DNA from: Squalus acanthias
Lineage: Eukaryota
NCBI GenBank assembly: GCA_030390025.1
Contig: CM059432.1
Coordinates: forward strand, 34,536,001 to 34,600,000
DNA length: 64,000 bases
Direction of reading: 5' to 3'
The notes under the pieces are model-generated. The model worked only from the letters and a program-made list of their open reading frames with translations, was not told the DNA's origin and did not search any database. This document shows positions 37,860 to 59,349 of this stretch, in pieces (position 1 is the first letter of the stretch; every line of letters begins with the position of its first letter). A program made the position numbers and the translations under genes.

Positions 37860-38181
37860 AAAAAAGTGGGGGCGAGAGAGCGAGCGCGAGGGGGGGATGA
37901 AAAATAAACTGAGCGGAAAGATGGACTGCCTCTACCTATTGCATATAACGTTCTGAAGACTAAAATTGAAAGGGATTCTGAATGATTGGTTTCAGACACA
38001 CAGCCGCAGCTGGAGCCAGACGGAGCGTTAGAAGAAATCTCTTTAGATTGTCAACTTGATACACAGCCTCCTCCAAAAAAAAAGGCGATTTGCAGCCTCT
38101 TCTTTTGAACACTGAAGATATTTATTATTTATTAATAAATAGCCCGTTGCCGGGAGGAGGAGAGGAATCCCCCAGACGCAG
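37860..38181 (+). promoter_or_regulatory. Probable promoter and non-coding exon 1 of the CDK5R gene; predicted intron 38182-38716
   Basis: TE-free and CpG-containing; inverted CCAAT near 37984; donor CAG|GTGAGA at 38181; polypyrimidine tract + AAG acceptor at 38716. Confidence 0.55.
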
Positions 38182-38786
38182 GTGAGATGCATGAATTTAT
38201 TACAATTATTTTTTTTTTAACCGGCCAGCTCTTGGTGCAAACAATTGTGTGTGGGTTTTTCTTTTGTGTGTAAAGGAGTTTGCATTTATTAAGTGGAGCA
38301 AGGTCGATCATGTACCGGGGCTCAGAACCGAAGATATATTTAAAAGATACCCATCTAGTGGGGCTATCGAATTGCATTGCATGTGTGTAATTTTTGCTAG
38401 ACTTTTAACCAATTTCGCCATGTAGGCGGGCAGATGCTGGAGACGCAAATTGATGCTAATCCAGAAATCGTTCAGCTATCGGTGGATTTGTATTGCCTTT
38501 CTCTCAAATGAGCGGCTGATTGCTATTTATATGTACATGCTTTCTGACCAGACAGTGCCGGTTGGGTTTCTGGCGGAGGGTAATTTGCAAGTTCCCTAGG
38601 ATTTGCATGGGTGATGATTCTGCTAATTTGTTTTTTTGGAATGCATTAAAATCGTGAGCAGCTGAACGGCAGAGATTTGCACGAATTAATCGAGCTATTT
38701 TTGCCTCCCCTTAAAGGAGCCGTTTCCCCCTCCTCGAGTGTTGGATTTATAATCCCTAGACATTGGTTGCAAACGATCGGGGTAGA

Positions 38787-39695
38787 ATGGGTACTGTCTT
38801 GTCTCTGTCTCCCGGCTCTCGGAGATCTAGTATATTTGAGGATGGTGCCGACTCCAAGTCTTTGGGTCACTACCACGCTATTCAAAGTGCCAAGAGCAAC
38901 GGCCCGAAGGAGAAGAGCCTGAAGCGCCACTCCATCTTTATCCCAGCCTTGACTTGGAAGCGGCTGGTAGCTTCAACCAAGAAGAAAAGCTCCAGAAAGT
39001 CCAACCCGAGTAACTATCATCACCAGAATGACGTGGTCCACCTCAACAGTGAAAATGTGAAAAAGTCTCTCTCCTGTGCCAACCTTTCCAGCTATGAACT
39101 CCAGGTGCCCGGTGACCCCTTGAGCACCAAGCAGCTCTCTTCCATCAAGAAGGCCTCGTCCCACAACAGTGGAGCAGGATCTCCCAAACGTGTCGTCGTC
39201 CAGGCGTCTACCAGTGAATTATTGAAGTGTCTGGGAGAATTCCTTTGCCGGCGGTGTTACAGGCTGAAGCACTTGGCTCCGACAGATCCGGTCCTTTGGT
39301 TGCGCAGTGTTGACCGCTCCTTGTTGCTCCAAGGTTGGCAGGACCAGGCATTCGTCACCCCGGCCAACGTGGTCTTTGTCTACTTGCTTTGTAGAGATGT
39401 CATCGACGGGGACCAGGTGGCCACAGAGCATGACTTGCAAGCCACCCTCTTGACCTGCCTCTATCTGTCCTACTCCTACATGGGCAACGAGATCTCCTAC
39501 CCGCTGAAGCCTTTTTTGGTGGAGAGCGCCAAGGATGCTTTTTGGGACCGGTGCCTTCGCATCATTGACACCATGAGTACCAAGATGCTCCAGATCAACG
39601 CGGATCCTCATTATTTCACGCAGGTCTTTGCGGATCTGAAAAACGAAGGAAGTCGAGATGACTTTAGCAGGATCTCCGTTACTTTAGATCGGTGA
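38787..39695 (+). CDS. CDK5R1: Cyclin-dependent kinase 5 activator 1-like (p35 family), 302 aa, uninterrupted CDS
   Basis: MGTVLSLSP myristoylation N-terminus, [49 protein letters not shown]-terminal LDR. The real ATG is at 38787; the ORF track starts 8 codons early. Exact paralog identity uncertain. Confidence 0.95.
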
Positions 39696-42110
39696 CTGAT
39701 GGCGAAAAAAGCTTCAATCTGATCTCTCCCAGTGGGTAACTCGTTAGAAAGAGTTGCTGCCGGTATCTTTAAATAAACGAAGTTGAATTTAAAGAGTGTT
39801 CCTCCTTTTGGCTTTCACAGGAAGCTTCTGCGATCATTTAACACTGAAAATGTTGGCCCCCTTTTTTTGCTTAAAGGGGTATCATCTTTGGACGGAAAAA
39901 TGATAATTACGATTTTCCTCTTGAGGCCGGGTGCAATGACCTAAATGGGTATCTGTACAATGCTTTTTCCAACTGTGTTTTTGCATGGGAACCTCTCTAA
40001 ATGTTAATCTAGGCACTCCTGAGGATCTGCCCCTTTCAAATATTGATACCTTGCTGGGGCTTTCCTTCCCCCTTCCATTTTCTAAAACCGTGCCAGTTAC
40101 TCAAAGGGAAACAGTGCCATGATTGCAGAAAGAAATGCAATTAATAGATAGATAGAAGCAACAAGGCAACCTGTACAGAAAACTGATAACTTTACAGACC
40201 ACCTGGTTCACCATAGGATCAGGGAACTATGGAAAAATTATGGTGTTTTGGTGATGGAAATCTCTCTCTCTAAACGGTCCCACTCAGTATTTATATTTAA
40301 AAAAAGTGTCCCGTTTTTCTAAATATTTTTTTTATATAAATGAGAAAGCTGCTATCTATTGTGAAGATAATCTCTCAACACTTAATGAGGCCATAGGCAG
40401 GCAGGTACAATGTGTTTTTTTTACCCTGCCCTTTGCCCCTCAACTCACTTCCTGTTGTGGTGTTGGGTAACTCCCCTGCCTTTTCCCTTTTCACCTCACC
40501 CCCTCCCAAATTAATGTCGTGGAAAATGAGGCTGGCAGCAGGGGAATCTGAACTAGGCCTCTGTGAAAACCTCTGTCCTATAACTTGCAACACTAGGAGG
40601 GGAAGCTATATGGTTTCTTATCAAATGTCTGCAGGGTGGAGTGTCTTTTGTATTATGGTGATCATCATTTGCAAAGTCTAGGGTTGCCAACTCCAGTTGG
40701 ATATATTCCTGGAGGTTTCATCACATGACTCCCGCTTCCAGCAGCCCCGTCCAGTCAAATAGCCTCTTTTCCCCATCTCTGGTATTCTTGCAACTAACTA
40801 AATCAGTGTTCAAAGAAAATGGGGAGGGGCGAAACGCTTTGCCCTAATGATTTTTCTGGGGGGTTGCTCACAGCAGTCAGGAGATTAATCTTTAATGTCG
40901 TCTGGAGAGTCCAGGACAAACCCTGGAGGTTTGGCAACCCTGAATGCTAACTATGTTTTGGCAGAGGAAGAAGAGGGAAAGGGAACTCACCAGAGCCATA
41001 AGCTGGGCGCTTGTAAATAGCTTGATTATCCATTCTGAACGTGGTGGAAAATTACCTTTTTTTAAAAAAAAAAAGGGTCTGAGCCACAAGCACCTGACCC
41101 GATGACTGGTACGCTTTGGTGATGTCGCTCACATAGTTTACAAAAAATATATAAATCTGTATGAAACTTTCTATGGGTTTTTTAAATTAAAAAAAAAAAA
41201 AATCAATGGGTCAAAAATATTCAAAACTAGCAGAGCTTCTGTGGAATTGCTCATGGGGTCTCTGATGTTTAGCTGGTAAAATGGAGCTGTGTATAACAGG
41301 GCTAGTCCCTTTTAAAACCAATGCTTGAGTATTCCCTGTGGAGAAATAGGCACCTTCTAGTCATTGTAGCTGCTTGTAAAATTTTTGACTCCGAGTCAGG
41401 AGAACCCAGCATCAATCTTTGAGGTGGACTGCTTTCCTTTCTCTATTTGCCTTGCATCTGCAGCCAAATGAGAGATGCATGCTGGACATGAGCCTCTTCT
41501 GATTTACAGGTAGCGAGATCCTCCCTCAGGCTTGTTGCTGGGCAGAGATTTACAGGTTTTTTTTTTGGTGGGGGCGGGGCGCAACAGGAACATCTTGGGA
41601 CCACCGTTTTCCCAGTAAGATGTTCACTCATGAAATAGAAAAGGGAAGCTACCTATGAAAGTGAATAAAATCGGAGGAAACCTTTTGTGGCCCTACGACT
41701 TTCCAAGAGGAGTCGGCTAGGCCAATGCTGCTAATAAATTCTGGAATATTCTATGTAAATATAATGCTACTGTGATGGTGAGCATGCGAGCATTTATATT
41801 GGAGAGCTTTTTTATTTAAATTATGTTGTAAATGTAAACTAACTTATAACCATCTCTCTCAAACCTCTTTGCCAGTATTGGGGAGTAGGTTATGTTTGTC
41901 AGTGTTATTTAATTTTTTTTTCTTCTCTTCTGTGAGCTGGTGGCGTATGGAATAATTTTGAAGTTTGAGCCCCTCCTTGCACCTTCCACCTTTTGTGGGT
42001 TCAGACTGACTGAGGGTGTATTTAAAAAAGAACCTTGCTTGTTTAAACTACTGCTTCATTTCTGAGATGTTATGTATAGAATACAAAAGTGTTCAAGACG
42101 GTTGGACCTT
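39696..42110 (+). other. Probable long AU-rich 3' UTR of the CDK5R gene
   Basis: TE-poor with U-rich blocks. AATAAA at 41733; AATACA at 42080 is followed by GT/T-rich sequence. Confidence 0.55.
40679..40942 (+). mobile_element. hAT-type MITE in the putative 3' UTR
   Basis: TIRs AGGGTTGCCAA / TTGGCAACCCT; homologous to 3602-3923. Confidence 0.75.
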
Positions 42111-42648
42111 GTAACCCAAAAAAGTGTGCATGTCTCAACTTATTTTGTTTTTGCTGTTTACTTTCCACTTCTTTAATCAACCAGGAAGGCTGAAATTAGC
42201 AGGAAAAATTCAAACGCTGGGACTCTGGAATATAAACCGGAAATTTGGAGAAAGTCTGTGAACATCTGAATGAGAATATTCTCGGAGATTTGCTGGAATG
42301 ATTTCTACCAGCCCCCTTATGTTTTCAGATGTGTTGCAGCTCCAGAGTTGTGCTGTTTCTTTTAATGGGGGGGGGGTGAAAAATATTTGCCAAATCTGTG
42401 TTTACATGTGACCCATCATGCCTGTGCTAGGCTTTTGCTACAGCAATCCCAAACTAATCCCGCTGCCCTGCTTGCCTGCCAGCCCTGCACCATCTTCTCT
42501 TCAAATATTTATTAGCACACTTATCTGTTCCCCTTTTTCCTTCAATCCCTTTTCCATCATCTACCTATCCAATCTAACTTTAAATGTTGACACAGTTTCT
42601 GCCTCAACTATTAACCCTGAAAGTGAATTCCACAGCCCCACAACTCTA

Positions 42649-43098
42649 AAGAAAAGAAAGACTTGCATTTATATAGCACCTTTCACAACCACCGGACGTC
42701 CCAAAGCACTTTACAGTCAATGAAGTACTTTTGAAGTGTAGTCACTGTTGTAATGTAGGAAACGCAGCCAATTTGCGCACAGCAAGCTCCCACAAAAAGC
42801 AATGTGATTATGACCAAATACACTCTCTCTTTGTTATGCTGATTGAGGGATAAATACTGGCCAGAACACCAGGGATAACTCCCCTGCTCTTCTTAGAAAT
42901 AGTGCCATAGGATCTTTTACATCCACCTGAGAGGCCAGGTGGATGTAAACATGTTTAACATGTTTAACATCTCATCCGAAAGACCACACCTCTGATAGTG
43001 CAGTACTGCACTGGCGTGTCAGCCTAGATTTTTGTGCTCAAGTCTCTGGAGTGGGACAAGAACCCACAACCTTCTGACTCCGAGGCGAGAGTGCTACC
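42649..43098 (-). mobile_element. Deu-domain tRNA SINE inserted in an old CR1 fragment (about 42410-43215)
   Basis: Head, Deu core and tail are all on the minus strand; CR1 sequence flanks both sides. Confidence 0.85.
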
Positions 43099-44499
43099 AA
43101 CTGAGCCACGGCTGACACTGTTGCTCCTGTTCTCTGTTCTAAATCTCTTCCATTTAATCTTGTATCTATGGCCACTCATTCTGAACCCCTCACCTATTGG
43201 AAATATTCTGCTACCATCTTGGTGAGACATGCAGCTCTTACGTCATTGATCAAGATGATGTTTGTCGGACTTCTCTCAACTCCCCCTCTTAACGGAGATG
43301 GCGTTCCTTTTAAACTGTTCAAAGAAAAGCAAGGAGTCCCCCAGTGCTCTGGTCAACCTTCTTCCCTCAACCAATGCCCACCAACAAAAAAAAGTGAAGT
43401 AGTTATTCATTTTGTTGCTGTTTTGTATTGCGGTCTGACAAAGATTTCATTGCTTCACTAAAATCTTTGGAGGCATCTTGACAATATGATGAAGCTTATT
43501 TTTTTGATCTTCTCGGGCTGTGTTTTTAATATTGACTTCTTGCCGTGCTAGAACAGTAGCTCCCGAGGGGTGATCCTAGAACGATCCCAAATTAAAATTG
43601 CAGGATTTGTTAATTGGAGCCAATTGAAGAACTGACTTTTTTTTTTATTTAAAAAAAAAAGTTGGGAGTTTCCTTGGAACTTCTCCCGATCCGACGACTT
43701 AATTTTGTTGGAAACTCCACTTGTGCGCATAAATGGGGTTTCGCCAAACTTCAGCTAAAGTTACGGCAGCAGAGGGGGAGGGGGTCTAAGGAATTTCACC
43801 CATACTGGGTCCACTTGGCCGTTGGCCTTGGGGAATATGGACATAGGAACAGGAGTCGGCCATCCAGCCCCTCGAGCCTGCTCCGGCGTTCAATTAGACC
43901 ACGGCTGATCTGTACATCAACCTCATTTACCTGCCTTTGCTCCCTATCCCTTGATACCCTTACCCAACAAAAATCTATCCATCTCAGTTTTGAAAATTTC
44001 AATTGACTCAGCATCCTGAATCTGGTAGGTTTACTGGTTGCTAGTGGCATAAAACCAATAGAACAATAGCTTAAAATAGGCAACTTGATGCCATTTACTC
44101 TACAAGATGCCAAGGCTTCTTCAACAGCACCTCCCAAACCCACGACCTCTACCACCTAGAAGGACAAGGGCAGCAGGTGCTTGGGAACACCACCACCTCC
44201 AAGTTACACACCATTCTGACTTGGAAATATATCGCCGTTCCTTCATCGTGGCTAGTCAAAATTCTGGCACTCTCCCTAACAGCACTATGGGAGTACCGTC
44301 ACCACACAGACTGCAGCGGTTCAAGAAGGCAGCTCACCACCACTTTCTCGGGCAATTAGGGATGGGCAATAAATGCTGGCCTTGTCAGCGACGTCAATAT
44401 CCAGGAACAAATTTTTAAAAAAAAAAACTAGAGTATGGTTGGAAATATGTGGTTAGAGGGCATATCAACTGGAAGAATATAGATGGCTAGATAATGGGC

Positions 44500-44840
44500 T
44501 AAGGTAGTGTAGTGGTTATGTTACTAGGTTAGTAATCCAGAGGCCTGGACTAATAATCCAAAGAACATAAGTTTATAATCTCACCATGGCAGTTTGAGAA
44601 TTTAATCTGGAAAATAAAAAGCTGATATCAGTAAAAGTGACCATGAAACTGATGGATTGTCGTAAAAACTCAACTAATGTCCTTTTTAAGGATGGACAAC
44701 CTGATGTCCTCACCCAGTCTGGCTTGTATGTGACTCCAGTCCCACACCAATGTGGTTGACCCTTACAGCTGGGTGGCTTGCCAGGTATTTATCAAACTGC
44801 TCAGGGCAAGTAGGGATGGGCAATAAATGCTGGCTTTGCA
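44500..44840 (+). mobile_element. tRNA-headed SINE matching the 5' head and 3' tail of the 4461-7682 LINE
   Basis: GGTAGTGTAGTGGTTATGTTACT..AGTAATCCAGAGGCCTGGACTAAT head and CAGGGCAAGTAGGGATGGGCAATAAATGCTGGC tail. Confidence 0.85.
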
Positions 44841-46363
44841 ATTAAAGTGTAGTTTTGAACATTCCACTTAAAGACTTGAATACAGTGTGGGTTCCAGTTG
44901 GGGGAGAAATGGAGGCTTCCTCTCACCTGAGTAATGTTAGCAGGTCTGAATGAACTGATTCTAGTTACCAGTGTGCACGTGTCTGCTGTTCAAAGATAAC
45001 CTCAGAATAGTACTGCACTGATTCAAAATGCTCCCAAAGGTCTAAAATGTGCAAGACAGAGAGTGGTGATTCTGATCTGAACGCTTAATGCATTTGTCCT
45101 GTTTCCTGTGCACCCCCATGGGTTGATGTTTGTGTAACATAGCACAGATGGAAATCTAGTGTGACTGCATTCAAGGTTCAGATGTGAAGTTTGCTGATTG
45201 TAACTTCTACCCTCCAATGTTAAGTGAGTTTTGCAATTTTTCTTTACTTGATTGGTTAAACACAAAGGTCGGTCTTGAAGCCCACAGCAGAATAGGTGGA
45301 TAAAGTATAAAACCCAGCTTTTATTTTCAATGGATGGAAAAAGTGTTCTAATGTCGCTGCCTGTGATAGAGAAATAAATAGTGGGATTCCATCCCAGACT
45401 GTGACACATTTGACTCTCCTTCCTCTTCCCACTCCTTGGCTTCAATTCTCTCTCCTCCTCCTGTCCAAAAGGTGCTGACGTGCCTGGCTACAGTGTCACA
45501 TATGCTGGCTGATCCTTCAGTAGCTTGTCCAAGTGGCTATTCTTTGTCTGCATCCTTGGAGATTGAGCGGTGATTGGCTGTTCCATTGCAGCCGACATTG
45601 CAGTGGAGTTCATGCAAGATCCAAAGTTCAGAAATGTACACGTTTATTGGAACAGGAGTAGGCCATTCAGCCCCTTGAGCCTGTTCTGCCATTGAATTAA
45701 ATCATGACTAATCTGTACCTCGACTCCATTTACCTGCCTTCGCTCCCTATCCCTTGATACCCTGACCCAACAAAAAGCTATTGATCTTGGTCTTGGAAGC
45801 TCCAATTTTCCCAGCATCAGTTCCAGATTTCTACTACCCGAGCAGAGTGTCACTGGATAGCAATTGGGAGCAGAGATTCTGGTTGACATATTCCCTGGAC
45901 AAAACCAGCAGCCTAGCCAAGATCGGCCAACTTGACACGGATTGTTGCTCATCTGAATACCTGTCTGCTGAGGCTCCTTCTGAATTATTTCTTGATTGAA
46001 GCCAGTCAATCCTGTTACTGTTTTAAATTGCTCCTTCACATACTGACTATGACAAAAGGAGTTATAGAATCACCAGCAATGAAGGAGACTATTCGGCTCA
46101 TCGTGCCTGTGCCAGCTCTTTGAAAGACCTGTCCAATTAGTCCCACTCCCCTGCTTTTTCCAACTCCCTTTTGAAAATTACTGTTGAATCTGCTGACACC
46201 ACCTTTTCAGACAGTGCATTCCAGATCATCATAACAAATTTCTCCTCTTTCTCCCTTCTAGTTCTTTTATCAATTATTTTAAATCTGTGTCCTTTGGTTA
46301 CTGACCCACCTGCCAATGGAAACAGTTTCTCATTTGATCAAAACCCCTTAATTTTCATATATG

Positions 46364-46560
46364 GGGTACATTAGCATAGTGGACTAGCACATTGTCATTT
46401 TGACCTCTGGCACCTGAGTCTGCATCCACTCTATCAGTGGGGTCAAGATCTCTCCTCTCTGCTGGTCGTAAGATCCTGCATGAGATGCATTTGAGGTCAT
46501 CTTAACTCAGTTGCTAATGAAGCAACACACAATGCCCCTATTGTCACTAAATTGATCATA
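46364..46560 (+). mobile_element. Old SINE fragment resembling LF-SINE
   Basis: TAGCATAGTGG head, GACCTCTGG..CCTG, CAGTTGCTAATG and ATTGTCACTAAATTG blocks resemble the recalled consensus. Confidence 0.4.
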
Positions 46561-48659
46561 TCTTCTCTACTAGGATGGTTAGTGTGGGGAATAGAATAAA
46601 TGTAACACTGGTGCAATAGGGTGTGCTCTTCTGTGATTGGGGTTGAGATACATTTTTTTTTGGAGCAGTGTAGAGGAAGCTTTATTCTGCATCCAACCTA
46701 TGCTGGACCTGAACTGAGAGTGCTTGACACTGGATAATCCAATTGGGAAAATCACAACTGGTTCACTATTATCCTTCAGGGAAGGGAACCGGCCACCCAA
46801 TCCCACACTACAAGAAAATAGTTGCCTTCTAAAGCGGCCTAGCAAACCACTCTTGTTTTCAACAATCATTAGAAAGTGACCCAGGTTCACCTTCTCTGGG
46901 CAAATAGAGATGGGCAATAAATCCACAACCTGACAACAAATGAAGGAAAAAAGTAGCTTTGTTCCCAGCAATAGTATCGGTCATTAATTTGCAGCTGTAC
47001 TTTAATGCTTCCTCTTGTTGAAATGAAGTTTCCTATAACTCTGATGTATGAACCCCATATGATTAGAAGCCATGAACACCCAAGGTACAATTATTTCCTG
47101 AAATCCAGAGCAATTCAACACTACAGAATGGGAAATGGGTGGGCTGAGGGCTGGAGAAGCTTCCCCTAGCTTTGATTTCCCTCCAACTGAGTCTCACTGC
47201 CCAGGTGATGCCCCCTGTTGGAGGGCAAGGAAAATTGGAAGCGGAGTTATTGCTAGTTTGCTCTGCTCCTTGTAACTGGTGATTGTTAGGAAACCTAGAT
47301 TTAGAAAAATGGGTATTCCCAGCAGGTTTACTTTCAGATTGCAGCCAATGATCTTGCAAATATTGCACACATTCATTGAATTCAATTTCACAATCTGTGA
47401 TTGGTGGCTGTGCCCTACACTCTGGAAAGTATTTCCCTAAACCCTTCTGCTTCTCCACCTCTTCCTTTAAGACCCTATTTAAAACCCACCACTTTGACCA
47501 ACCCCCTCCTAATATCTCTTTCTTTGGTTCTGCGTCCATTTTTGTCGGATTACACCTCTGTGAAGCGCCTTGGGACATTTTGTTCTCTATGTTAAAGGGG
47601 CTATATAGATGCAAGTTGTTGTGTCAAATTTGAAGAGTTGCCATTGTCTTCACGATCTTCATCTTCATCCCTAATCCCTGCCCAAACCCATTGGTATTTA
47701 GAACTGAAATGTGGTCAGGACAGGCATGCATTGATCAAGAGGTGGAAGCAAAATGCTCCTCAATTGTATATTTTCCTTGCATGAGATTGCTATTGGAAAG
47801 AGAAAGACTAGATAAACTGCAGCTCTGATTTCTCCCCTTTCCAAAGCTACGTGAGAAGCAGAAGTGAACCTGTTATTTTTTGTGATATGTGTGACTTATA
47901 CCAGTCCCAGTAGAACTGGACAACAGGCTGTCTAGGCCTGAAGGGCTTTCCTGCTCCCATATCAGCTGGCTGAATTGATCCTTTGACATTCAGGAGTGTC
48001 TCCCAGAAGGCTGAAGAGGTTTCTCTTGGTCCTATGCTGCTTTGACAGTATTGTCTACCCTTCTGCTATAACTTCAGGCTTTCTAGGAGCTTGTGGTGTT
48101 GAGTATTGAAGCTAGTTTTCAATTTTTCAATTTAAATAAATAAATGTAAGTAACTGACATGTGGAGCACTGCGCTGTGACTTTCTATGATGTGGAGTTGT
48201 AATCGTTCATGCAATACTCTCTGCTGAAGCAGAGGGGCTGTGTTAATTGTGTCAGTGTGAAGTCTGATTGCTCTGTGGCTGTATGTGGTGACAAATGGTA
48301 TGTGGGCCATGAGCTAAGTTTTAATAACTGTCATTTAAATATTTTTGTACTGTAGGAATAAAATAAAAAATGCACAATTTATTTTCCTTGCCTTTGTTTT
48401 CCCCCACCCCTTTATTCCCACTCTGCCACTCCTGGACTGGATCCAAGAAATATCTGGTGATCTGATGGGAAATTCTGCTTGCACAGTTAAGAGTACAACC
48501 TTTTTGACTTTTTTTCTCTCTCTCCCTTCCTTCCTCCCTTCCTTCCTCCCTCCCCCACTCCCTCCCTCTCCCTCCCTCCCCCTCTCTCTCTCTCTCTCTC
48601 TCTCTCGTCCTGTCAAACACTCGCAGGGCGTCGGTTAGATACAAAGTGAAGCACACTGC

Positions 48660-49034
48660 CTCTTTCTATTCATAAAGATGCCAGATGATGTAAATGTTCC
48701 TCCTGGTGTAGAGTGCCTCGGCGACGTCCCGGATACAGTGGTGCACAGTAAACTGGGTGCTGTTGCTGATGGTACCTGCTGCAGCCTGGAAGGAGCCTGT
48801 TGAATGAGTTTATCACGGGGCGAATCAGTTGCTGGGACAGACCAATTTCATGGAACAGTCCTACAACTACCCTTTCTTAATACTTCAGGATGCCTTTGGA
48901 GAATCCCGCTCCAATATGGCAGGTGGTACTCTTCCAACGTGGAATGACCATGCACACACCACCTGCCATATTGGACCCTTAGGTGCCAGTTTTACGCCTG
49001 TAAAGTGGGTGTGGTGCAATTGAATTTCTAGCCT
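48660..49034 (-). mobile_element. Harbinger DNA transposon remnant with a transposase fragment
   Basis: Minus strand about 48690-48800 reads TGSFQAAAGTISNSTQFTVHHCIRDVAEALYTRRNIYI, similar to the HARBI1/Harbinger GSFQ..SQ..C..V.EAL block. Terminus-like GAATTTCTAGCC at about 49022. Confidence 0.65.
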
Positions 49035-49064
49035 AAATTCTGTCTTTGGGGGAGAATAAATGAG

Positions 49065-49610
49065 AATTCATATTAAAGATCAGCACCCTCCTGGGTGTGG
49101 ATTGGGGAAGTTATATTAAAGGGACAATATCTTCCCACAGACAGTGAAGTGAGTATTTTAAAGTGATAGCGTCCTCTTTTGAGGGAGAGTGGGGTTGAGG
49201 ACATTAAAGGGATAATGTCCTGAAAGGAGGGTTAAGGTGACGCTATTAAAAGGACAATGTACTGTGTAGATAATGAAGATGAGGACATTAAAGGGACATC
49301 ATCCTGCGAGGAGTATGAAGGTGAATATATTAAAGGGACATTGTCCTGCGAGGATCACAAAGGTGTTAGCCTATTAAAGGGACAGTGTCCTGTGAGGAGG
49401 ATGAAGGTGTGTATATTAAAGGGACAGTGTACTGCAAGAGTGTGAAGGTGACTATATTAAAGGGACAGTGTACTGCAAGGAGTGTGAAGGTGACTATTAA
49501 AGGGACAGTGTACTGCAAGGAGTGTGAAGGTGACTATTAAAGGGACAGTGTCCTATGAGGGAGCGGGAGGGTGAGGACATTAAAGGGATAATGTCCTGTG
49601 AGGAGGGTAA
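49065..49610. repeat. 40-42-bp minisatellite; further units at about 50745-50805 and 51100-51190
   Basis: Unit ATTAAAGGGACAGTGTACTGCAAGGAGTGTGAAGGTGACT, about 13 copies. Confidence 0.9.
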
Positions 49611-49611
49611 A

Positions 49612-50712
49612 CATAACATAAATAGGAGCAGGAGTAAACCATACGGCTCCTTGAGCTTGCTCCGCCATTCAATAAGATCATGGCTGAATTGCTACTTCCA
49701 GTTTCCCACCCTATCCCTTGATTCCCGTAGTGCCCAAAAATATATCGATTTCAGTCTTGAATATAATCAACGACTGAGCCTCCACAGCCCTCTGAGGTAG
49801 AGAATTCCAAAGATTCACAACCCTCTGAGTGAAAAAATCTTTCCTCATCTCAGTCCTAAATGGCCGACTCCTTATCCTGAGACGATGACCCCTAGTTCTA
49901 GACTCTTCAGTCAGGAGAACCAGCTTCTCCGCATCTACCCTATCAAGCCCTCTTAGAATTTTATGTTTCAATGAGATCACCTCTCATAATTCTAAACTCC
50001 AGAGAATATAAGTCAGTTCTACTCAATCTCTCCTCATAGGACAGCTCTCTAATCCCAGGAATCAATCTAGTGAACCATTGTTGCACCCCCTCCAAGGCAA
50101 GTATATTCTTAGGTAAGGAGACAAACTGTACACAGTACTCTAGGTAAGGTCTCACCAAAGCCCTATATAATTGCAACAAGATTTATTTACTCTTATACTC
50201 TATCCCTCTTGCTATAAAGGCTAACATAACACTTGCCTTCCTAATTTCTTGCTGTATCTGCACATTAACTTTCTGTGGTTTGTGTAAAAACACCCAAATC
50301 CCTTTGAATACCAACATTTGCTAGTCATTTTATAAAAAAAAAAAAAATTCTGCTTTTGTATTCTTCCGTACATAATTTCACATTTCCCCACATTATGCTC
50401 CATCTGTCACCGGCCACCACCTTGCCCAGTCACTTAACCGATCTATATCCCTTTTGCGTCTTCCTCACAGTTTACTTTCCCACATAGCTTTGTATTGTCA
50501 GCAAACTTGGATACATTCACTCGGTCCCTTCATCTAAGTCATTGATCTAGATTGTGAATAGTTGAGGCCCAAGCACTGATCTTTGCGGCACCCCACTAGT
50601 TACAGCCTACCAACCTGAAAATGACCCATTTATTCCTACTCTTTGTTTTCTGTCTGTTAACCAATCTTCAGTCCATGCTATTATATTACCTCCAATCCCA
50701 TGAGCCATAATT
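49612..50712 (-). mobile_element. 5'-truncated CR1 LINE
   Basis: ORFs 49711-49980 and 49961-50179; tail at about 49612. Confidence 0.9.
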
Positions 50713-50809
50713 AGGAAGGCAAATGGTATATTAGCCTTTATTGCAAGAGGGTGAAGATGAGTATAGTAAAGAGACAGTGTTCTGTGAGGAGGCTGGTGAG
50801 TATAGACAG

Positions 50810-51100
50810 AAGAAAGAAAGAAGAAAGACTAGCGCCTTTCGTGACCAACAGACATCCCAAAGTCTTTTGAAGTGTAGTCACTGTTGTAATGTGGGAAATG
50901 CGGCAGCCAATTTGCACACAGCAAGCTCCCACAAACAGCAATGTGATAATGACCAGATAATCTGTTTATGTTGATTGAGGGATAAATATTTGCCAGGACA
51001 CCGGGGATAACTCCCCTGCTCTTCTACAAAATAGTGCAATGGGATCTTTTACGTCCACCTGGGAGAGCAGACGGGGACTCTGTTTAACGTCTCATTCAAA
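50810..51100 (-). mobile_element. Deu-domain SINE, truncated; similar fragments at about 600-745, 51770-52070 and 58730-58922
   Basis: Deu core plus tail. Confidence 0.8.
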
Positions 51101-53069
51101 GGTGACTGCGTCCTGCGAGGTGGGTGCAGGAGATTACATTAAAGGGAAAGTATCCTGCAAGGATGCAGAAGGTGAGTACATTAAAGGGATAGCATAATCT
51201 CTATTCGAAGCACAACTCCTCCGAGCTCAGAATGTTATCAGATAAAGAATCTTAGGAATGGTGTAGTTTTGAGAAACAAATATTTAACAGAGAAAGCTGA
51301 AATCATCATATATTGAGATGAAGGCAAAACAATCCCACACACCTAGTGTCTCTGGTAAGTGCTAATTACTTGGCGCTGGCTGTCTCCAGTGTAGTGGGAG
51401 GAGTACTGGTTGGGAAGAGAAGGGGAGGCGAGAGGGAGAGAGCTGGCGCTGGGATGATCTGACTCTGCTCTGTTCCTGCATCAGGCAAGATCTAATTATA
51501 GGTCTGGGCTGCAGCACCAGTCATAAATATTTTGAGTAACTGAAACCAATTGTGTGCATTCTTTAATTGTAAACACTGTCCTCGCTATGTGAAGTATCTC
51601 TAGAGGAATAGCAAAACACGGGAAGAGCCTCTCAGACATTTCCTTATGCTTTCTTCTCCTGTCCTTTCACTTCCCCCTCTCATCCCTTCTTCTTTTCTGT
51701 CTCTCCTCTTCCCACCTCTAAATCTTTCTCCTTCCCCCCCCTTTACTGTTTCTCCCTTTCCTTCTCTCTTCCCTTGAGTGCAGTAGTGAGGGATTGCAAG
51801 CGGTGTCTCATTAAATGGTGGCCCTGGCCACCGCACGGGTGGAAAGATCCCACAGCACTATTCGAAGAGGAGCAGGGAGTTCTCCCAGTGTCCTGCCTAT
51901 ATTTATCCCTCACCAGCACCACTAGAAACCGATTGACTGGCCATTCATCTCACTTGCTGTTTGTGTGATCTTGCTGTGGAAATTGGCTGCCATATTTGCC
52001 AACATAATAACAATAACTACACTTCAAAAGTACTCGGTCATGTGATAAGATGCTATATTAAAGGCAAGTTTTTTACTACTTTCTCTTCTCTCCCTCTCTC
52101 CTCTTTCATCTCCCCTCTGTTCTTTCTCCTTTCTCTTTCCCATCCTTCCTCCCTCATTCTCTTTTTTCCTCTGGTTTTTCTTCCTCTACCATAGAATGGT
52201 TACAGCATAGAAGGAGGCCATTCGGCCCATGCCAGCTCTCTGCAAGAGCACTTCAGCTAGTCCCACTCCCCTGCCCTTTACCCATAGCCCAGCAATTTTT
52301 TTTCCTTCAGGTACTTATGCAACTCCCTTTTGGAAGCCACAATTGAATCTGCCTCCACCCTTTTCAGGTAGTGCATTCCAGATCATAACCACACGCTGCA
52401 TAAAAAAAGTTTTTCCTCCTGTCACCTTTGTACCCTCTCTGCCTTCTTTCCTGATCCTCTCTTGTCTTTACCCTCTTGTCCCCTTTCTCTCCCTCCTTTA
52501 CCTCCTCTCTCTTCCCCTTCTCCCTCTCTTTTCTTTGTGCATTCTCTTCTTTGTCTCTTCCCTCCTTCCTCTGTCTCACTCACTCTCCTCTATTCCCTTC
52601 TCTCCTTCCTCAATCTCTTGACCCCCTGCTCTTCTTCCCGGTAAGCCCTTCTCTCCTCTCCCACTCTGTGTCTCTTTCCTCTGCTCTTTTTCTCTGTGCC
52701 ACAGTACAGCTCTTGATCAGTTAGTAGAGCACTCACTATTCAAACGAACAATCCTCTACAATTAGAGTGAGCTGCACAATTTGCTGCACGGCCATCTCAA
52801 TTTTGAATAAAAAGTCCTGGAAACCGTGACAACTCGATTGTGATAATTTGTAATAACAAATCATCAGCCGCACTTAACAGCACTTACGATGTGCAGGTCC
52901 CTACAGTTCACTTCTGGTATAATTGGTGTTTGTTTCCATTCCAACTGTTAATGATACTATATTATAAGTTACTTGGGGTGAAGTAAGAGCATCAGGTGTA
53001 ATTTCACACATCAGTAACAACATGTATTAAATGGATGTGAAGCACTTTGGAATGTCCAAGAATGTCATT

Positions 53070-53400
53070 TGTGAATTTGTATTCAGTTTTAAATATCTAG
53101 AAATAAAAAGCTGGTAACAGTAACAGTGACCATGAAGTTGTCGGATTATTGCAGAAACCCAATTGGTTCACTAATGTACTTTAGGGAAAGGAACCTGCCA
53201 TCCTTACCCGATCTGGCCTATTTGACTCCATTCCCACACCAGTGTGGTTGATTCTTAACTGCCCTCTGAAGTGACCTAGCAAGCCACTCCGTTGTATCAA
53301 ACCACTTCGGTTCAAGAAGGCCCACCACCTTCTCAGGGCAACTAGGGAAGGATAATAAATGCTGGCCTTGCCAGCGATACCTGCATCCTGAAATAGATTT
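53070..53400 (+). mobile_element. SINE of the LINE-head/LINE-tail family, 5'-truncated
   Basis: Central block matches 7370-7560; the tail matches the LINE 3' end from CGGTTCAAGAAGG onward. Confidence 0.8.
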
Positions 53401-53837
53401 TAATTTTTTTAAATAATTTTCTATTGATTTATAACAATGACACCAACTTGGATTTATATAATGGCCCTCATGGCGAAAGAACAAGGGGGAAGAGGTTGCT
53501 GCCAAGCAACAAGGCCTGCAGCTGTACCTCTAGATCCCAGCGTAAGGCTCTGCTATGGGGTGGCCTTGTGCCAGGATTGCCCCTTTGGCTAATGCTATTG
53601 ACTCAAGTCAGGAAACTTGTGTGCACCTTTCCTCTTAAAGACACAGTGCACCACAGGTATATTATACTCATTGGGCATTAAAAGAGGAAATTCTGCCTGA
53701 CACTTGTGCACGGCAGGTTAACAGTTTTAAATGAGTTATTAGCAGATCTCTGGGTGCTGCGCATGGTGAGTCAGAGGTTAACCTGTTGTCAGTGTATGAA
53801 AGTGGGGGAGGGGGCAAACTTCGCCAGTGACAGCTGT

Positions 53838-54274
53838 CTCAGCCTTGGCTCAGTGGTAGCACTCTCAGTCTGAGCCAGATGGTTGTGGGTTCAAGTCCCA
53901 CTTCAGAGACTTGAGCACAGAATCAAGGCTGACACTGGCTGCACTGTCGGAGGTGCCGTCTTTCAGATGAGACATTAAACCAAAGCCCCATCTGCCCCCT
54001 CAAGTGAGTGTAAAAGATCCCATGGCACTATTCGAAGAAGAGCAGGGGAGTTCGCCCTGGAGTGCTGGCCAATATATATCCCTCAACCAACATCACTAAA
54101 ACAGATTATCTGGTCATTTATCTCCTTGCTGTTTGCGGGAGCTTGCTGTGCACAATGTCTGCCGCGTTTCCTACATTACAACAGTGACTATGCTTCAAAA
54201 GTACTTCATTGGCTGTAAAGGCCTTTGGGACATCCTGAGATCGTGAAAGACACTATATAAATGCTAGTTCTTTC
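53838..54274 (+). mobile_element. Full-length Deu-domain tRNA SINE (SacSINE1-like)
   Basis: A box TGGCTCAGTGG, B box GGTTCAAGTCC, Deu core, L2-type tail. Confidence 0.88.
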
Positions 54275-55082
54275 AGTGAAAGAATTTGCAGGGAAGTGTC
54301 TTAAAGGTTTAGCTGCCCAGAGACAGGGGGGTAAATTTAGGTCTTCACTTCCCAGGCAGTAATCTGGCAGAGTGGGTCACCAGCCCTGTGTAGAACCCGG
54401 CTGATTTTCATCCCATTCGGAATGAGCATCAGACGGTTTCTCCGATGGGTGCTGACCTGCTCTGTTAGATTACTGTCCATGCATGAAGACGGACGTTTAC
54501 CCCTGGAGAACAAATATCGAATGTTTCCCTTATCATTCAGCCCCAGATGGTATTTCTTTCAACAACAACAATTTGTATTTATATAGCACCTTAATCTCTT
54601 TCCCAGTCTATTGAAGGACGTTGGGGAGGAGATGGTGTCGGCACTAAACAGAATTTTCTTAAATCTTCGGAGAGGAATTGCAGCAAAGTTCTAGAGCATT
54701 AGCAAATAATGCACCCCTGTTCAGAAAAGGGAAAAGATAAGCCAGAAAATTATAGGCCGGGTTAGCATCACCTCAGCTGTGGGCTTATTGCTTGGCCCTG
54801 GATTTCTGCTCCAGGGCCCAGGTAGAGAGCGGACCCATTGTCCGCCAGGATTTGGGGTAGAAGCTGGTTCTGCCAGGATTCTGTTTATTCTGCCTAGTCA
54901 TACTCTGGTGGGGAGGGACATCTTCTGTCTTCTACCCCTTCTCCCTCCCCCCAGCCCATCCCTTTCACATCAAGGGGGTCCAGGGGAGGTATTGGCCTAC
55001 CGTGGGAGTTCAAGCTATTTTTTCCTTTAAGGCCTCTGAGAATTTGCTGATACCTGGTGTGAGTCATGCTGACGGAATTTAC

Positions 55083-55680
55083 AAACAACAACTTGCATTT
55101 ATATAGTGCCTTTTACATAGTAAAGCGTCCCAAGGTGCTTCACAGGAGTATTCTAAGACGCACAATTTGACATCAGGAGCTATTAGGACAGATGACCAAA
55201 AGCTTGGTCAAAGAGGTAGGTTTTAAGGAACGTCTTAAAGGAGGTAGCGAGGCGGAGAGGTTTAGGGAGGGAATTCCAGAGCTTACGGCCAAGGCAGCTG
55301 AAGGCAGGCCACCAATGGTTGAGTGATTAAAATCAGGGATGCTCAAGAGGGCAGAATTAGAGGAGCGCAGATATCTCGGGAGGGGGGTTTGTGGGGCTGG
55401 AGGAGATTAGAGATAGGGAGGGGTGAGGCCATGGAGGGATTTGAAAACAAGGATGAGAATTTTAAAATTGAGGTGTTACTTAACTGGGAGCCAATGTAGG
55501 TCAGCGAGCACAGGGATGATGGGTGATGAGACTTGTTGCGAGTTAGGATACGGGCAGCCGAGTTTTGGATGACCAAGTTTACGTAGGATAGACGTGGGAG
55601 GCCAGCCAGAAGTGCATTGGAATAGTCAAGTCGGGAGGTAACAAAGGCATGGATGAGGGTTTCAGCAGCAGATGAGCTAA
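55083..55680 (-). mobile_element. L2-clade LINE 3' end; another tail at about 47400-47620 (+)
   Basis: IQNSAARILTR motif in ORF 55343-55576; 3' end GGCACTATATAAATGCAAGTTGTTG. Confidence 0.85.
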
Positions 55681-56589
55681 GCCCTAAACCTTTACTAGGA
55701 ACAGTAATCAGCCTCTCACTACCTCAAGAGGCCCACTTGGTCCATTAGGAGCAGATTTCAAAACAAAGATTTTCAATGGGTCCTTCTGGTGCCTCCTCTC
55801 CACCAGTAGACTGGCATGGCATTCCTCTAGCATTCAGCTGGTGTGTTGGGGTGGCTTCCAGGAAATGCCCTTACTGGCACAATGTGCCTTTTTTATTCAT
55901 TCTCAGGATATGGCTTCACTGGCAATGCCAGCATTTATTGCTCATCCCTTGAGAAGGTGGTGGTGACCCTTCTTGAACCGCTGCAGTCCTTGTGAAGGTA
56001 CTCCCACAGTGCTGTTAGGTAGGGAGTTCCAGGATTTTGGCCCAGCGACGATGAAGGAACAGTGATATATGTCCAAGTCGGGATGGTGTGTGACTTGGAG
56101 GGAATCTTGGGAGTGATTGTGTTCCCATGCACCTGCTGCCCTTGTCCTTCTAGGTGGCGGAAGTTGCGGGTTTGGGAGGTGTTGCCGAAGAAGCTTAAGC
56201 GAGTTGCCTGCCCCACATACTCTGAGAACCTTGTCCCTGTAATTCAGGGTGGGGTTTGAGCCTAACTGCTTGGGGTGATTTAAGCCCTGATTTTAACTGA
56301 ACACACCTGGCAATAATGGGGTGGGTTTGGGTAGGAAGCCAGATTTACAACCTCGTCTGATTTTACTTTCCATTGATTTCAAGTCTGGTCTCTGGAGTGC
56401 ATATTATGGGATGTACTTAGTCAACACTTAGTAAAGCATAGGCCAATCTTGGGGAGTCGGTGTGGATCTGTAGAGGGCAACTTGTTCTTGACTGACTGAA
56501 TTGATTTTACCTTTTTGAGAAATTAGAGTGTGCAGCTAAAGAGAATATGGATTTTCAGAAGGCGTTTGAGAAGATACACAGAGGTTACA

Positions 56590-56960
56590 ATTTCAAATCC
56601 CAACTATTTATTGCAATTGAATTCAATAAATCTGGTCATTTGTGGGCTGGCACCAGAAAAAATGACCATGAAAACTGCCAGATTGTCATAAAAACCCAAC
56701 TAGTTCACTAGTGTCCTTCAGGGAAGGGAGCCAATCGGCAGGTTTCCTTCCCTAAAGAACATTAGTGAACTAGTTGTCTTTTTACAACAATCTGATAGGT
56801 TCATGGTCACTTTTACTGATACCAGCTTTTTATTTTCAGATTTTTTTAAAGCTGATTTCAAATTCTCACTGCCATGGTGGGATATGAACTCACGTTCTCT
56901 GGATTATTAATCTAGGCCTCTGGATTATTAGTTCAGTAAACATATCCAGTATACTACCAT
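56590..56960. mobile_element. Two opposed fragments of the tRNA-headed SINE family
   Basis: A plus-strand piece (56590-56730) faces a minus-strand piece (56735-56960) that includes the head. Confidence 0.7.
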
Positions 56961-59082
56961 ACACTTTGTTTATTCGACCCTGGCCCATTGCAGATCTACA
57001 AAGGATGTTTCCCTGTCCTGCACAGTAGAACCATCCTGTCTTATGAAGTATTTGACTATCTTGATCTATGCTCATCTGTAAACCTTTAATCATTAACTAA
57101 ATCCTCACTAAAAGGAGATAGCACTGTAAGCATTACACACATATGGCATGTACTTGTCATGTAATCTGAAAAACAAAACCCAAAATGATTTTTTCTTTGA
57201 TCTCAACCTCATCTACCCACCTTCTCATTATATCGCCTAATTCCTTCTTGCCCCACAATGAGGCCCCGATTTTAAAAGGGGCGGCTGTCCCCGGCAGTCA
57301 GTGGAATCAGAGACTGGAAGCAATCGAGTGGGGGGTTTCCATGGCGATCGGGGCGGGGGGGGGGGGGGGGGCTGGGGAGGCTCATGAACTCCTTGCGGGG
57401 CCTGGGGGCAGCACTCCTGCTCCTCCTGGCCCAAAAGCAGCTCTGAGAAACGTAATTAAAAAAAAACTTACCTTGACCTCTCTGCCTAGTCGATTCCTCC
57501 TGCTGTGGTTTTACTTCCGTGCTGCAGACCATGCAGGACTCCCCCTGAGGTGAAGTTAATGTTATGTTGCGACACCGTTGAAAAATTGGACCGCGACTTT
57601 TGAACGCTAAGTAGGCCCCTGCCTGCCTTTAGCGGGAGCCTTGTCCATGGCATGAGTCGCCATAATAAAAATCACGGCAGTCAGGAACATGGCTGGTTGG
57701 AGCTGGAAGCTAACATTTTTAGCTTTTAATCTCTCCCACGCATCATTCTCGCTGGGGAGGGGGGTTAACATCCCAGCCTGATTGACTCTTGAACCCATTT
57801 CTTCCCTGTTTACTTATTTCACTACTTTATTGTTGAAAAAGTCCTTCTTGCCGTTTCTTCTTCACTTGCTCATTTTTATTTGGTGTCCTCTGGGATTTGA
57901 ACCATTCACCACAGGGAACAACTTGTATGGATCATTTTTGTCAACTCCCTTCATAATCTGTCAATGCCCTTTAGGTCACCTCAAAGCCTCCTCTTTTCCC
58001 AAGAAAACACGACCAACTTCCTTAATCTTTCCTTATTAGTTAGATTCCCAATACCTGCCATTATCTTGGTAGCCCTTACAGAGCCATGATATTGGGTGCT
58101 ATTAAGCATATTTCGTGTTGGGTCAGATCAGGTTCAACCAAACCAAATTGGGCCTAGTTCACCAATATCTCATCCCAGGTTGTCATGGAGACTCATCCTC
58201 TCAAATGTAAACAGAGGAATTATTCACAGATCATCTACTTCAGCTTGAGCTGCAGAATCTGTAGAGAGAGAAAGACAGCGCAGAATGGAGTTCTATTTAC
58301 CATTGCTGATTACTGATGAGATTTCCACGGACACAGTTACAGGCACAAGTACGCAAAGTCTTTAAATCGCTGCATATTTAGTGCATCAGCATTTACAGCT
58401 CTTTTCAGCTCAATCCACCTCTGATTTCACAGTCAGAACTCAACGAGATTCCAACTTCTCTCCCGAAGGTATTACTTCATGCCCTGTTACTCCAGCACCT
58501 GGGCTGGCAGCACTCTGGGCCCTCGACCCGTTGGTCATCCTTCTATTCTGAGCTTCGACAGTGAATGTCTGCAGTTTACTCGGCAGTTAATAAGGAGGGC
58601 CAATGGATGCAACACTACTCCTAGAAGCAAAAGCCTCTGCCAGACTTTCTGGTCTGTGGCATAAGGTAGGCACCGAGATGCCCTCCCTCGCGGCTCGGGC
58701 ACCCGCCAGTGGTACTACACTAATGAACAAACAAACTTGCATTTATATAGCACCTTTCATGACCTCAGAACAGCCCAAAACGCTTTACAACCAATGAAGT
58801 ACTTTTGACTGTAGTCACTGTTGTAATGTAGGAAATGCGGCATCCAATTTGCACACAGCAAGCTCCCACAAACAGCAATGTGATAATGATCAGATAATCT
58901 GTTTTTAGTGATGTTGGTTGTGACAATTGCCCTGTTCATCTTGCGGCCTAATCTCAGCTGATTCTGGACATGACTTTGGGGCAAAATGAGCCAGTTAGGA
59001 GGGAACAGGAACTTTTTATTAAAAAACACATTTTTAAAAACAACTCGGTGCGCTCCTACTGAAAGCCCTCGTTCCACGAGCG

Positions 59083-59239
59083 CTATATTTCCGGCCAGTA
59101 CAGCGTGAAGCCCGTGCGATTTTTCTTGAAGTCGGGCTGTGTTTGCTCGATTCTTAGCTCCACCATCACTGTGCGTTTTTTGCCGTGCATGTTGCACTGG
59201 ATCGGGTTGCTGACGTTGACCTGCAGAGGTATCTTATTC
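59083..59239 (-). CDS. MYO1G: Last coding exon of an unconventional class I myosin (end of the TH1 domain), MYO1G/MYO1D-like
   Basis: Acceptor CTCTTTTATCTTTCCAG, then 1 nt + NKIPLQVNVSNPIQCNMHGKKRTVMVELRIEQTQPDFKKNRTGFTLYWPEI*. Same length as, and strongly similar to, the recalled MYO1D C-terminus; the FTLxWP ending is MYO1G-like. Minus-strand AATAAA at 59015-59020. D versus G unresolved. Confidence 0.8.
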
Positions 59240-59349
59240 CTGGAAAGATAAAAGAGTGAATAGTGACTCGATAGAAAGAAAATCCCTGGTTATACTTTTT
59301 GGGAGGGAAAGTTATGGTAAATTTTTTAGCTCGCAGTGCCATTACCTAC

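What the first reader, a model, noticed from the sequence alone, without database searches (positions are those of the whole stretch)
38787..59239. Possible third CDK5 activator ohnolog, tail-to-tail with a MYO1G-like gene
Seen: the protein mixes p35-like features ([10 protein letters not shown], [16 protein letters not shown]) with p39-like ones ([28 protein letters not shown]). A MYO1D/G terminal exon converges on it about 19 kb downstream. Known: human CDK5R1 lies tail-to-tail with MYO1D, and MYO1G is its paralog with no adjacent CDK5R as far as I recall. Inference: given the FTLxWP ending, this may be the MYO1G-linked duplicate block, holding a CDK5R paralog lost in mammals rather than the true CDK5R1.
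Basis: partly seen in the sequence, partly recalled or inferred. Interest (0 to 1): 0.75.

Follow-up and report, generated by a model that had tools for sequence, protein, structure and literature searches.

The report
Third vertebrate CDK5 activator gene
This shark gene belongs to an overlooked third lineage of the activator proteins that switch on the kinase CDK5, kept next to the myosin gene MYO1G from sharks to lizards while mammals are known to have only two, so some fish and frog genes treated as stand-ins for human p35 are really its sister gene.

Summary
Confirmed. Window 38787-39695 (+) is an intact 302-aa CDK5 activator in one reading frame; the last exon of a class I myosin (59083-59239, -) converges on it 19,387 bp away. 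The nearest relative is from the shark Heptranchias (96%). The protein is not CDK5R1 (p35): 21 species from sharks to lizards carry both this type and a true CDK5R1, and a shark-only duplication is rejected (AU p=1.7e-6). It lacks the CDK5R2 (p39) residues (0 of 11). The full-length shark orthologue of the myosin is MYO1G-like, despite its database name 'myosin-Id-like'. This CDK5R type shares a contig length with MYO1G in 17 of 18 species, true CDK5R1 in 1 of 12; in a turtle the two accessions are consecutive. So it is a third jawed-vertebrate paralogue, present in databases as 'activator 1-like' or si:dkeyp-92c9.2, and probably the frog protein Xp35.1 (link recalled). Limits: trees alone do not exclude a slow shark CDK5R2 (p=0.055), no shark CDK5R2 was in hand, and loss in mammals was not tested directly. 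I found no paper describing it as a separate lineage.

The parts
38787..39695 (+). Coding sequence of the third-type CDK5 activator (302 aa, one uninterrupted reading frame)
38787..38813 (+). N-terminus MGTVLSLSP: Gly2 (myristoylation site by analogy with p35; position recalled) and Ser8-Pro (CDK5 site in p35 and p39)
   Evidence: Ser8 and N-terminal myristoylation from passages of PMC7795262 and PMC4607440
39093..39098 (+). Tyr103-Glu104, aligned with the calpain cut Phe98/Ala99 of p35; acidic after the cut in this lineage
39180..39191 (+). Ser132 in SPKR, equivalent to p35 Thr138 (TPKR)
39201..39653 (+). CDK5-activation domain (about residues 139-289), p25 fold
   Evidence: 84% identity to p35 over 147 residues; model superposes on p25 chains, TM 0.92 by target length, rmsd 1.7
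37501..40000 (.). CpG-rich stretch over the presumed promoter and the coding sequence (CpG observed/expected 0.55-0.83 against 0.00-0.41 in most flanking bins)
39696..59082 (.). Spacer between the two converging stop codons, 19,387 bp, with no further host gene detected
59083..59239 (-). Last coding exon of the MYO1G orthologue (end of the TH1 domain), with stop codon; splice acceptor at 59241-59240
59015..59020 (-). AATAAA, candidate polyadenylation signal of the myosin gene

Best explanation
The gene is the shark member of a third jawed-vertebrate CDK5-activator lineage (informally CDK5R3). An ancestral block of a CDK5 activator lying tail-to-tail with a MYO1D/G myosin was duplicated before sharks and bony vertebrates split, most likely in the early vertebrate genome duplications. 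One copy is CDK5R1 with MYO1D, the other is this gene with MYO1G; CDK5R2 is the third surviving activator. The myosin survived in birds and mammals; the activator beside it is apparently gone from at least human and mouse. The protein most likely works as p35 does: anchored to membranes by its myristoylated N-terminus, it binds CDK5 through its C-terminal p25-like fold and activates it, with CDK5 feedback sites at Ser8 and Ser132. Shown here: sequence, fold, grouping, linkage. Inferred: origin by whole-genome duplication, loss in mammals, CDK5 binding, membrane anchoring.
For: (1) The 120 listed hits of 1793 split into 67 of the window's type and 53 CDK5R1-type; 21 named species from chimaera to snake hold both types, e.g. 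Heptranchias 96% and 70% identical to the window protein. (2) Trees: CDK5R1 clade 100/98 including shark CDK5R1, CDK5R2 clade 97/93, third group with the window protein 73/85 (31 rows); in a 60-row quick tree the third group without the chimaera row has SH-aLRT 95. (3) A clade of the three elasmobranch third-type rows with the two elasmobranch CDK5R1 rows is rejected, p-AU 1.7e-6. (4) At 28 columns that separate bony-vertebrate third-type from CDK5R1 the window has 18 third-type, 4 CDK5R1, 6 other states; at 11 columns that separate third-type from CDK5R2 it has 11 third-type states; all 3 columns unique to the third type are matched. (5) The full-length Heptranchias myosin (94% to the exon) is 77% identical to coelacanth MYO1G and 69-71% to four MYO1D proteins, and has 23 MYO1G, 5 MYO1D, 4 other states at 32 diagnostic columns; the MYO1D branch is 0.26 long against 0.03 between shark and bony MYO1G. 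(6) Linkage: same longest-contig length for third-type CDK5R and MYO1G in 17 of 18 species, for CDK5R1 and MYO1G in 1 of 12; consecutive accessions EMP29590.1/EMP29591.1 on a 1.6-Mb turtle scaffold and MBN3317549.1/MBN3317552.1 on a 0.74-Mb alligator-gar scaffold. (7) MYO1D with CDK5R1 is reported as a conserved pair in eel, caecilian, anole, chicken and human (passage of PMC9355259). (8) p25 fold and 84% core identity to p35.
Against: Monophyly of the third group is only moderately supported (73/85), and AU tests reject neither elasmobranch third-type plus all CDK5R2 (p=0.055) nor plus all CDK5R1 (p=0.20). No shark CDK5R2 and no single species with all three types was among the sequences retrieved. 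The myosin exon in the window alone is closer to MYO1D (71% turtle MYO1D) than to bony MYO1G (64% coelacanth), databases name the shark protein 'myosin-Id-like', and the myosin tree has no outgroup. The order of the duplications is unresolved. No bird CDK5R1 is in the 120 listed hits either, so the absence of bird or mammal third-type rows is weak evidence of loss.
Confidence: 0.85

Rival explanations
1. A third paralogue linked to MYO1G, but made by a local (segmental) duplication of the CDK5R1-MYO1D block in early jawed vertebrates rather than by whole-genome duplication.
For: Only two genes of the block are visible in the window. The third type is closer to CDK5R1 (84-89% in the core) than to CDK5R2 (66-76%). 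The tree does not resolve the order of duplications.
Against: Both copies are present from chimaera to snakes and sit on contigs of different length in 16 of 17 species with both lengths. From recall, not tested: human MYO1G, CDK5R1/MYO1D and CDK5R2 lie on the HOXA, HOXB and HOXD chromosomes, a set made by the two genome duplications.
Confidence: 0.07
2. The gene is the shark CDK5R2 (p39) in a slowly evolving, ancestral-looking form; sharks have just two activators.
For: It shares [22 protein letters not shown] and the extra residue in the DGD loop with p39. The AU test does not reject it (p=0.055). No separate shark CDK5R2 was retrieved.
Against: 0 of 11 CDK5R2 states; core identity 92-95% to coelacanth, frog and gar third-type proteins against 66-76% to CDK5R2 proteins; same MYO1G linkage as the bony-vertebrate third type; frogs and teleosts supplied both third-type and CDK5R2-type proteins, though from different species.
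Confidence: 0.05
3. It is simply the shark CDK5R1 next to MYO1D, or a shark-specific copy of that block, as the database names 'activator 1-like' and 'myosin-Id-like' suggest.
For: Database names; the exon alone scores best against MYO1D among non-shark rows; 4 of 28 columns carry the CDK5R1 state; elasmobranch third-type as sister to all CDK5R1 is not rejected (p=0.20).
Against: Sharks and rays have a separate protein inside the CDK5R1 clade (100/98); shark-only duplication rejected at p=1.7e-6; in Heptranchias, Pristis, Stegostoma and Scyliorhinus canicula CDK5R1 lies on a contig of other length than this myosin.
Confidence: 0.02

Closest known systems
CDK5R1 (p35/p25), Pfam PF03261
   Same: N-terminus [19 protein letters not shown] linker, S/T-P-K-R site, p25 fold (84% core identity to primate p35, TM 0.92), coding sequence in one frame, tail-to-tail with a MYO1D/G myosin.
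   Different: Separate clade; neighbour is MYO1G, not MYO1D; ALTWKRL instead of VLPWKRI, QDQAF instead of QDQGF, VIDGD loop one residue longer than VISSE; acidic residue after the calpain cut (63 of 67 third-type rows, 0 of 53 CDK5R1 rows); C-terminus DFSR..LDR instead of RLLIGLDR.
CDK5R2 (p39/p29)
   Same: [22 protein letters not shown], extra loop residue, DLKNEG.
   Different: Core identity only 66-76%; none of 11 CDK5R2 states (STGE, KEL, WFR, NLV, AFL, LAY, FQD types); no long low-complexity insertions or WT-LDR tail.
si:dkeyp-92c9.2 / Xenopus 'cdk5r1-like' (NP_001079141.1, AAB58715.1)
   Same: Same lineage: coelacanth protein named Si:dkeyp-92c9.2 in UniRef is 83% identical, the Xenopus laevis 'p35 like' protein 80%; core 94-95%.
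   Different: These are database labels without a stated paralogue status in the papers searched. That AAB58715.1 is the Xp35.1 of Philpott et al. 1997 is recalled and not confirmed; a review calls Xp35.1 'the Xenopus orthologue of p35' (PMC7014686).
Cryptic vertebrate paralogues absent from mammals (Bmp16, Kazald quartet)
   Same: Same pattern: an ancient paralogue hidden by its absence from the best-studied genomes (search listings of PMC6395752 and PMC12955574).
   Different: Different gene family; here the gene is slowly evolving and may already have been assayed under another identity.

Membership tests
CDK5 activator family (PF03261) | Match to the family profile above its cut-off | tested here: met
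   351 bits against cut-off 25
CDK5 activator family (PF03261) | p25-type helical fold in the C-terminal half | tested here: met
   Predicted helices 142-289; best five Foldseek matches are p25 chains, E 5e-16 to 2e-11
CDK5 activator family (PF03261) | N-terminal Gly2 and Ser8-Pro, Thr138-equivalent site | tested here: met
   MGTVLSLSP and Ser132 in SPKR
CDK5 activator family (PF03261) | Binds and activates CDK5 | not testable with these tools
   Needs a kinase assay; inferred from 84% core identity to p35
CDK5R1 (p35) orthologues | Groups inside the CDK5R1 clade with shark CDK5R1 | tested here: not met
   p-AU 1.7e-6
CDK5R1 (p35) orthologues | Neighbour is MYO1D | tested here: not met
   Full-length shark orthologue is MYO1G-like; no outgroup, and the exon alone is ambiguous
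CDK5R2 (p39) orthologues | Carries CDK5R2 residues in the core | tested here: not met
   0 of 11 columns
CDK5R2 (p39) orthologues | Groups with CDK5R2 in a tree | tested here: inconclusive
   Best trees place it outside but the constraint is not rejected, p=0.055; no shark CDK5R2 available
Third, MYO1G-linked paralogue | Groups with coelacanth, frog, gar and reptile third-type proteins | tested here: met
   One clade in the careful tree at 73/85, 95 SH-aLRT without the chimaera row; 18 of 28, 11 of 11 and 3 of 3 diagnostic columns. Support is moderate.
Third, MYO1G-linked paralogue | Linked to MYO1G across jawed vertebrates | tested here: met
Third, MYO1G-linked paralogue | CDK5R1 and CDK5R2 exist separately in the same genome | tested here: inconclusive
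   No genome held; CDK5R1 separate in 21 species; no species with all three types retrieved
Third, MYO1G-linked paralogue | Absent from mammals | tested here: inconclusive
   0 mammal, bird or crocodilian among 61 named third-type rows, but only 120 of 1793 hits were listed; review names p35 and p39 only
Ohnologue of the two vertebrate genome duplications | Lies on a paralogous segment with many further ohnologue pairs | not testable with these tools
   Only the CDK5R-myosin pair is visible; Hox-chromosome positions are recalled

The most novel reading that the evidence does not exclude
Jawed vertebrates began with three CDK5 activators. The MYO1G-linked one is the frog protein Xp35.1, the activator tied to somite and muscle development rather than to neurons alone; its acidic residue at the calpain site makes it a poor source of a p25-like hyperactive fragment; mammals lost it and p35 took over its non-neuronal work. 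Fish, frog and reptile data filed under 'p35' would then partly describe a gene that humans lack.
Probability: 0.25. Interest if true: 0.7.

Novelty: new member of a known kind. Interest (0 to 1): 0.48.

Why it matters
CDK5 is described as having two dedicated activators, p35 and p39. A third, conserved for over 400 million years in sharks, fishes, amphibians and reptiles, changes the orthology map: NCBI names several third-type proteins plain 'activator 1' (coelacanth, gar, Xenopus, fathead minnow), and a review treats Xp35.1 as the p35 orthologue. Zebrafish or Xenopus p35/p39 knock-outs would leave this activator intact, which could hide phenotypes. It also offers a natural variant for asking how the calpain cut that yields p25 evolved. 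The biochemistry is expected to be ordinary, and hidden paralogues of this kind are a familiar class, hence a middle score.

Tried and rejected
Expression is left open: no RNA holder listed (12 runs, one guessed-RNA run holds 0.79 of the words, none on record as RNA) and no reads were laid. Rooting the myosin tree with a non-reversible model did not finish in time and is not used. The careful 60-row CDK5R tree did not finish; the quick tree is quoted as such. A metagenome scan for further vertebrate activators gave 80 loci, of which one (L006) was vertebrate-like, CDK5R1-type; none was a shark CDK5R2 or a bird or mammal third type. The 150 representatives at 50% identity gave CDK5R2 proteins from shrew, alligator, frog and teleosts, and two lamprey proteins, but no shark CDK5R2 among the 10 that I named. 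The Atlas searches gave only family-level labels. Two look-ups of earlier scan findings returned nothing. A test that third-type genes lie on larger chromosomes than CDK5R1 was weak (11 of 17) and is not used. Philpott et al. 1997 is not held; the supplement of PMC3296468, which lists 147 chicken genes lost in mammals and may bear on novelty, could not be read; its main text has no 'cdk5', 'cyclin' or 'p35'. The hagfish preprint passage on Hox-cluster pairing is not self-consistent and was not used to order the duplications. No complex prediction was run: no CDK5 sequence was in hand and the pair would pass by likeness to solved structures.
Full report
The window encodes a 302-aa CDK5 activator at 38787-39695 on the plus strand in one open frame (Pfam PF03261, E=1e-104), inside a CpG-rich stretch. 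On the minus strand a splice acceptor at 59241-59240 opens a 51-codon terminal exon ending FTLYWPEI, followed by a stop and an AATAAA. It matches the C-terminus of 1007-aa shark class I myosins at 88-94%. The stops are 19,387 bp apart. No other myosin exon is in the window, and 138 further frames gave no host gene. The nearest proteins come from Heptranchias perlo (96% for the activator), so the window is from a shark; no whole genome is held.

The activator is not CDK5R1. The 120 listed hits (of 1793) fall into two motif-defined sets, 67 of the window's type and 53 CDK5R1-type. Twenty-one named species, from chimaera and sharks through coelacanth, lungfish, gar, teleosts and caecilians to turtle, tuatara and squamates, have one of each. 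In a 31-row tree CDK5R1 forms a clade at 100/98 that holds the shark CDK5R1 proteins, CDK5R2 a clade at 97/93, and the window protein lies in a third group at 73/85; in a 60-row quick tree that group, without the chimaera row, has SH-aLRT 95. Forcing the elasmobranch third-type and elasmobranch CDK5R1 rows together is rejected (p-AU 1.7e-6). The trees are weaker on the deep placement: elasmobranch third-type as sister to all CDK5R2 (p=0.055) or to all CDK5R1 (p=0.20) is not rejected. Column counts favour the third group: 18 third-type, 4 CDK5R1 and 6 other states at 28 columns; 11 of 11 against CDK5R2; 3 of 3 columns unique to the third type (sets of 58, 53 and 12 rows). Core identity is 92-95% to coelacanth, frog and gar third-type proteins, 84-89% to CDK5R1 and 66-76% to CDK5R2 proteins. 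The mix of p35-like and p39-like motifs is what a slowly evolving third paralogue that kept ancestral states would show (inference).

The myosin is MYO1G by the weight of evidence. The exon alone is ambiguous and scores a little better against MYO1D (71% to a turtle MYO1D, 64% to coelacanth MYO1G), in line with the database name 'myosin-Id-like'. The full-length Heptranchias orthologue is 77% identical to coelacanth MYO1G and 69-71% to four MYO1D proteins, about the distance that coelacanth MYO1G itself has from MYO1D, and shows 23 MYO1G, 5 MYO1D and 4 other states at 32 columns. In an unrooted 22-row tree the shark proteins are 0.03 from bony MYO1G and separated from MYO1D by a branch of 0.26. 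There was no outgroup or shark MYO1D, and non-reversible rooting did not finish.

Linkage ties the two together across jawed vertebrates. Using the longest-contig lengths printed with each hit, third-type CDK5R and MYO1G share a length in 17 of 18 species with both values (paddlefish differs; lungfish is a capped value and the Paroedura protein is assigned by motifs only, leaving 15 of 16), whereas CDK5R1 and MYO1G share one in 1 of 12 (garter snake). This shows the same chromosome only. Two short scaffolds show closeness: Chelonia EMP29590.1 and EMP29591.1 (1.6 Mb) and Atractosteus MBN3317549.1 and MBN3317552.1 (0.74 Mb). The sister pair MYO1D-CDK5R1 is reported as conserved in eel, caecilian, anole, chicken and human (passage of PMC9355259). 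A two-gene block duplicated before the shark-bony split fits the early vertebrate genome duplications; that the three activators sit on the HOXA, HOXB and HOXD chromosomes is recalled and was not tested.

Loss in mammals is likely but not shown here. None of the 61 named third-type rows is a mammal, bird or crocodilian, while MYO1G rows include all three groups. But the list is cut at 120 and holds no bird CDK5R1 either. A review names p35 and p39 as the activators (passages of PMC7014686). No shark CDK5R2, and no species with all three types, was retrieved.

How it probably works. The C-terminal half folds like p25 (helices 142-289; TM 0.92 and rmsd 1.7 to 1ung_D), so it should bind and activate CDK5 as p35 does (inference). 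Gly2, Ser8-Pro and the Thr138-equivalent (Ser132 in SPKR) are kept; in p35, N-terminal myristoylation anchors it to membranes, Ser8 affects localisation and Thr138 phosphorylation hinders calpain cleavage (passages of PMC7795262 and PMC4607440). One lineage-wide difference stands out: p35 is cut at Phe98/Ala99, and the residue after the cut is Ala, Thr or Gly in 53 of 53 CDK5R1 rows but Asp or Glu in 63 of 67 third-type rows. Whether this lowers cleavage is untested; PMC4607440 notes that residues N-terminal to the cut matter more, which argues for caution.

What is known. The lineage is in databases under non-committal names: Si:dkeyp-92c9.2 (coelacanth; stickleback group X in a table of PMC8549617), 'activator 1-like', and Xenopus laevis 'regulatory subunit 1 (p35) like', NP_001079141.1/AAB58715.1, which lies inside the third group. 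I recall that this 1997 entry is Xp35.1, described then as a new p35-family member active in somites; the paper is not held, and a review passage calls Xp35.1 the p35 orthologue acting with Cdk5 in myogenesis. Nine full-text searches found no paper that treats it as a third paralogue; the library lacks most subscription papers, and the supplement of PMC3296468 on genes lost in mammals could not be read. Of the papers cited I saw passages (PMC7014686, PMC9355259, PMC8549617, PMC3296468, PMC2954124, PMC4607440, PMC7795262, PMC10153176, PMC10115646) or search listings only (PMC6395752, PMC12955574).

Verdict. It is a new member of a known kind, visible in databases but apparently not described as a lineage. 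Interest 0.48; up to 0.7 if it proves to be the muscle-linked, calpain-resistant activator that mammals lost (probability 0.25).

Noticed in passing
window:20478-24890 (+): A Gypsy-type LTR retrotransposon with two identical 248-nt LTRs (TG...CA ends), a gag-like ORF (20766-21662, DUF7041) and a 930-aa ORF with reverse transcriptase, RNase H and integrase (21832-24624); GC about 60% against 44% around it. Identical LTRs point to a recent insertion. A 47-nt tandem duplication lies at 21510-21603; no clean target-site duplication was seen.
   Followed up: partly
window:20103-20498: A tandem array with a 36-nt period runs up to and into the start of the left LTR.
   Followed up: no
window:1-37100 and 42500-62400: Dense LINE fragments (reverse transcriptase, endonuclease and GDSL-esterase-like ORF1 pieces); 42% of the window matches itself elsewhere, while 37553-42524 around the activator gene is free of such repeats.
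   Followed up: partly
Proteins P0129-P0142: Shark, ray and lungfish proteins named 'unconventional myosin-Id-like' in NCBI group with MYO1G, so the label is probably misleading.
   Followed up: yes
Proteins P0097, P0116, P0198: In Thamnophis elegans CDK5R1, the third-type gene and MYO1G all show the same 145-Mb contig length, the only such case; possibly a fused chromosome (recalled: the snake Z joins these two segments).
   Followed up: no
Proteins P0254 and P0303: Two divergent lamprey activators; they fall near CDK5R2 on long branches without reliable support, so their relation to the three jawed-vertebrate genes is open.
   Followed up: partly
Proteins P0011-P0027: Frog third-type proteins are very uniform (293-294 aa, 78-80% to the shark protein), and no frog CDK5R1-type protein appears among the 120 listed hits.
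   Followed up: no
window:39696-41740 (+): Candidate polyadenylation signals at 39772, 41186, 41664 and 41733 and four ATTTA elements between 39787 and 40299 in the presumed 3' UTR.
   Followed up: no
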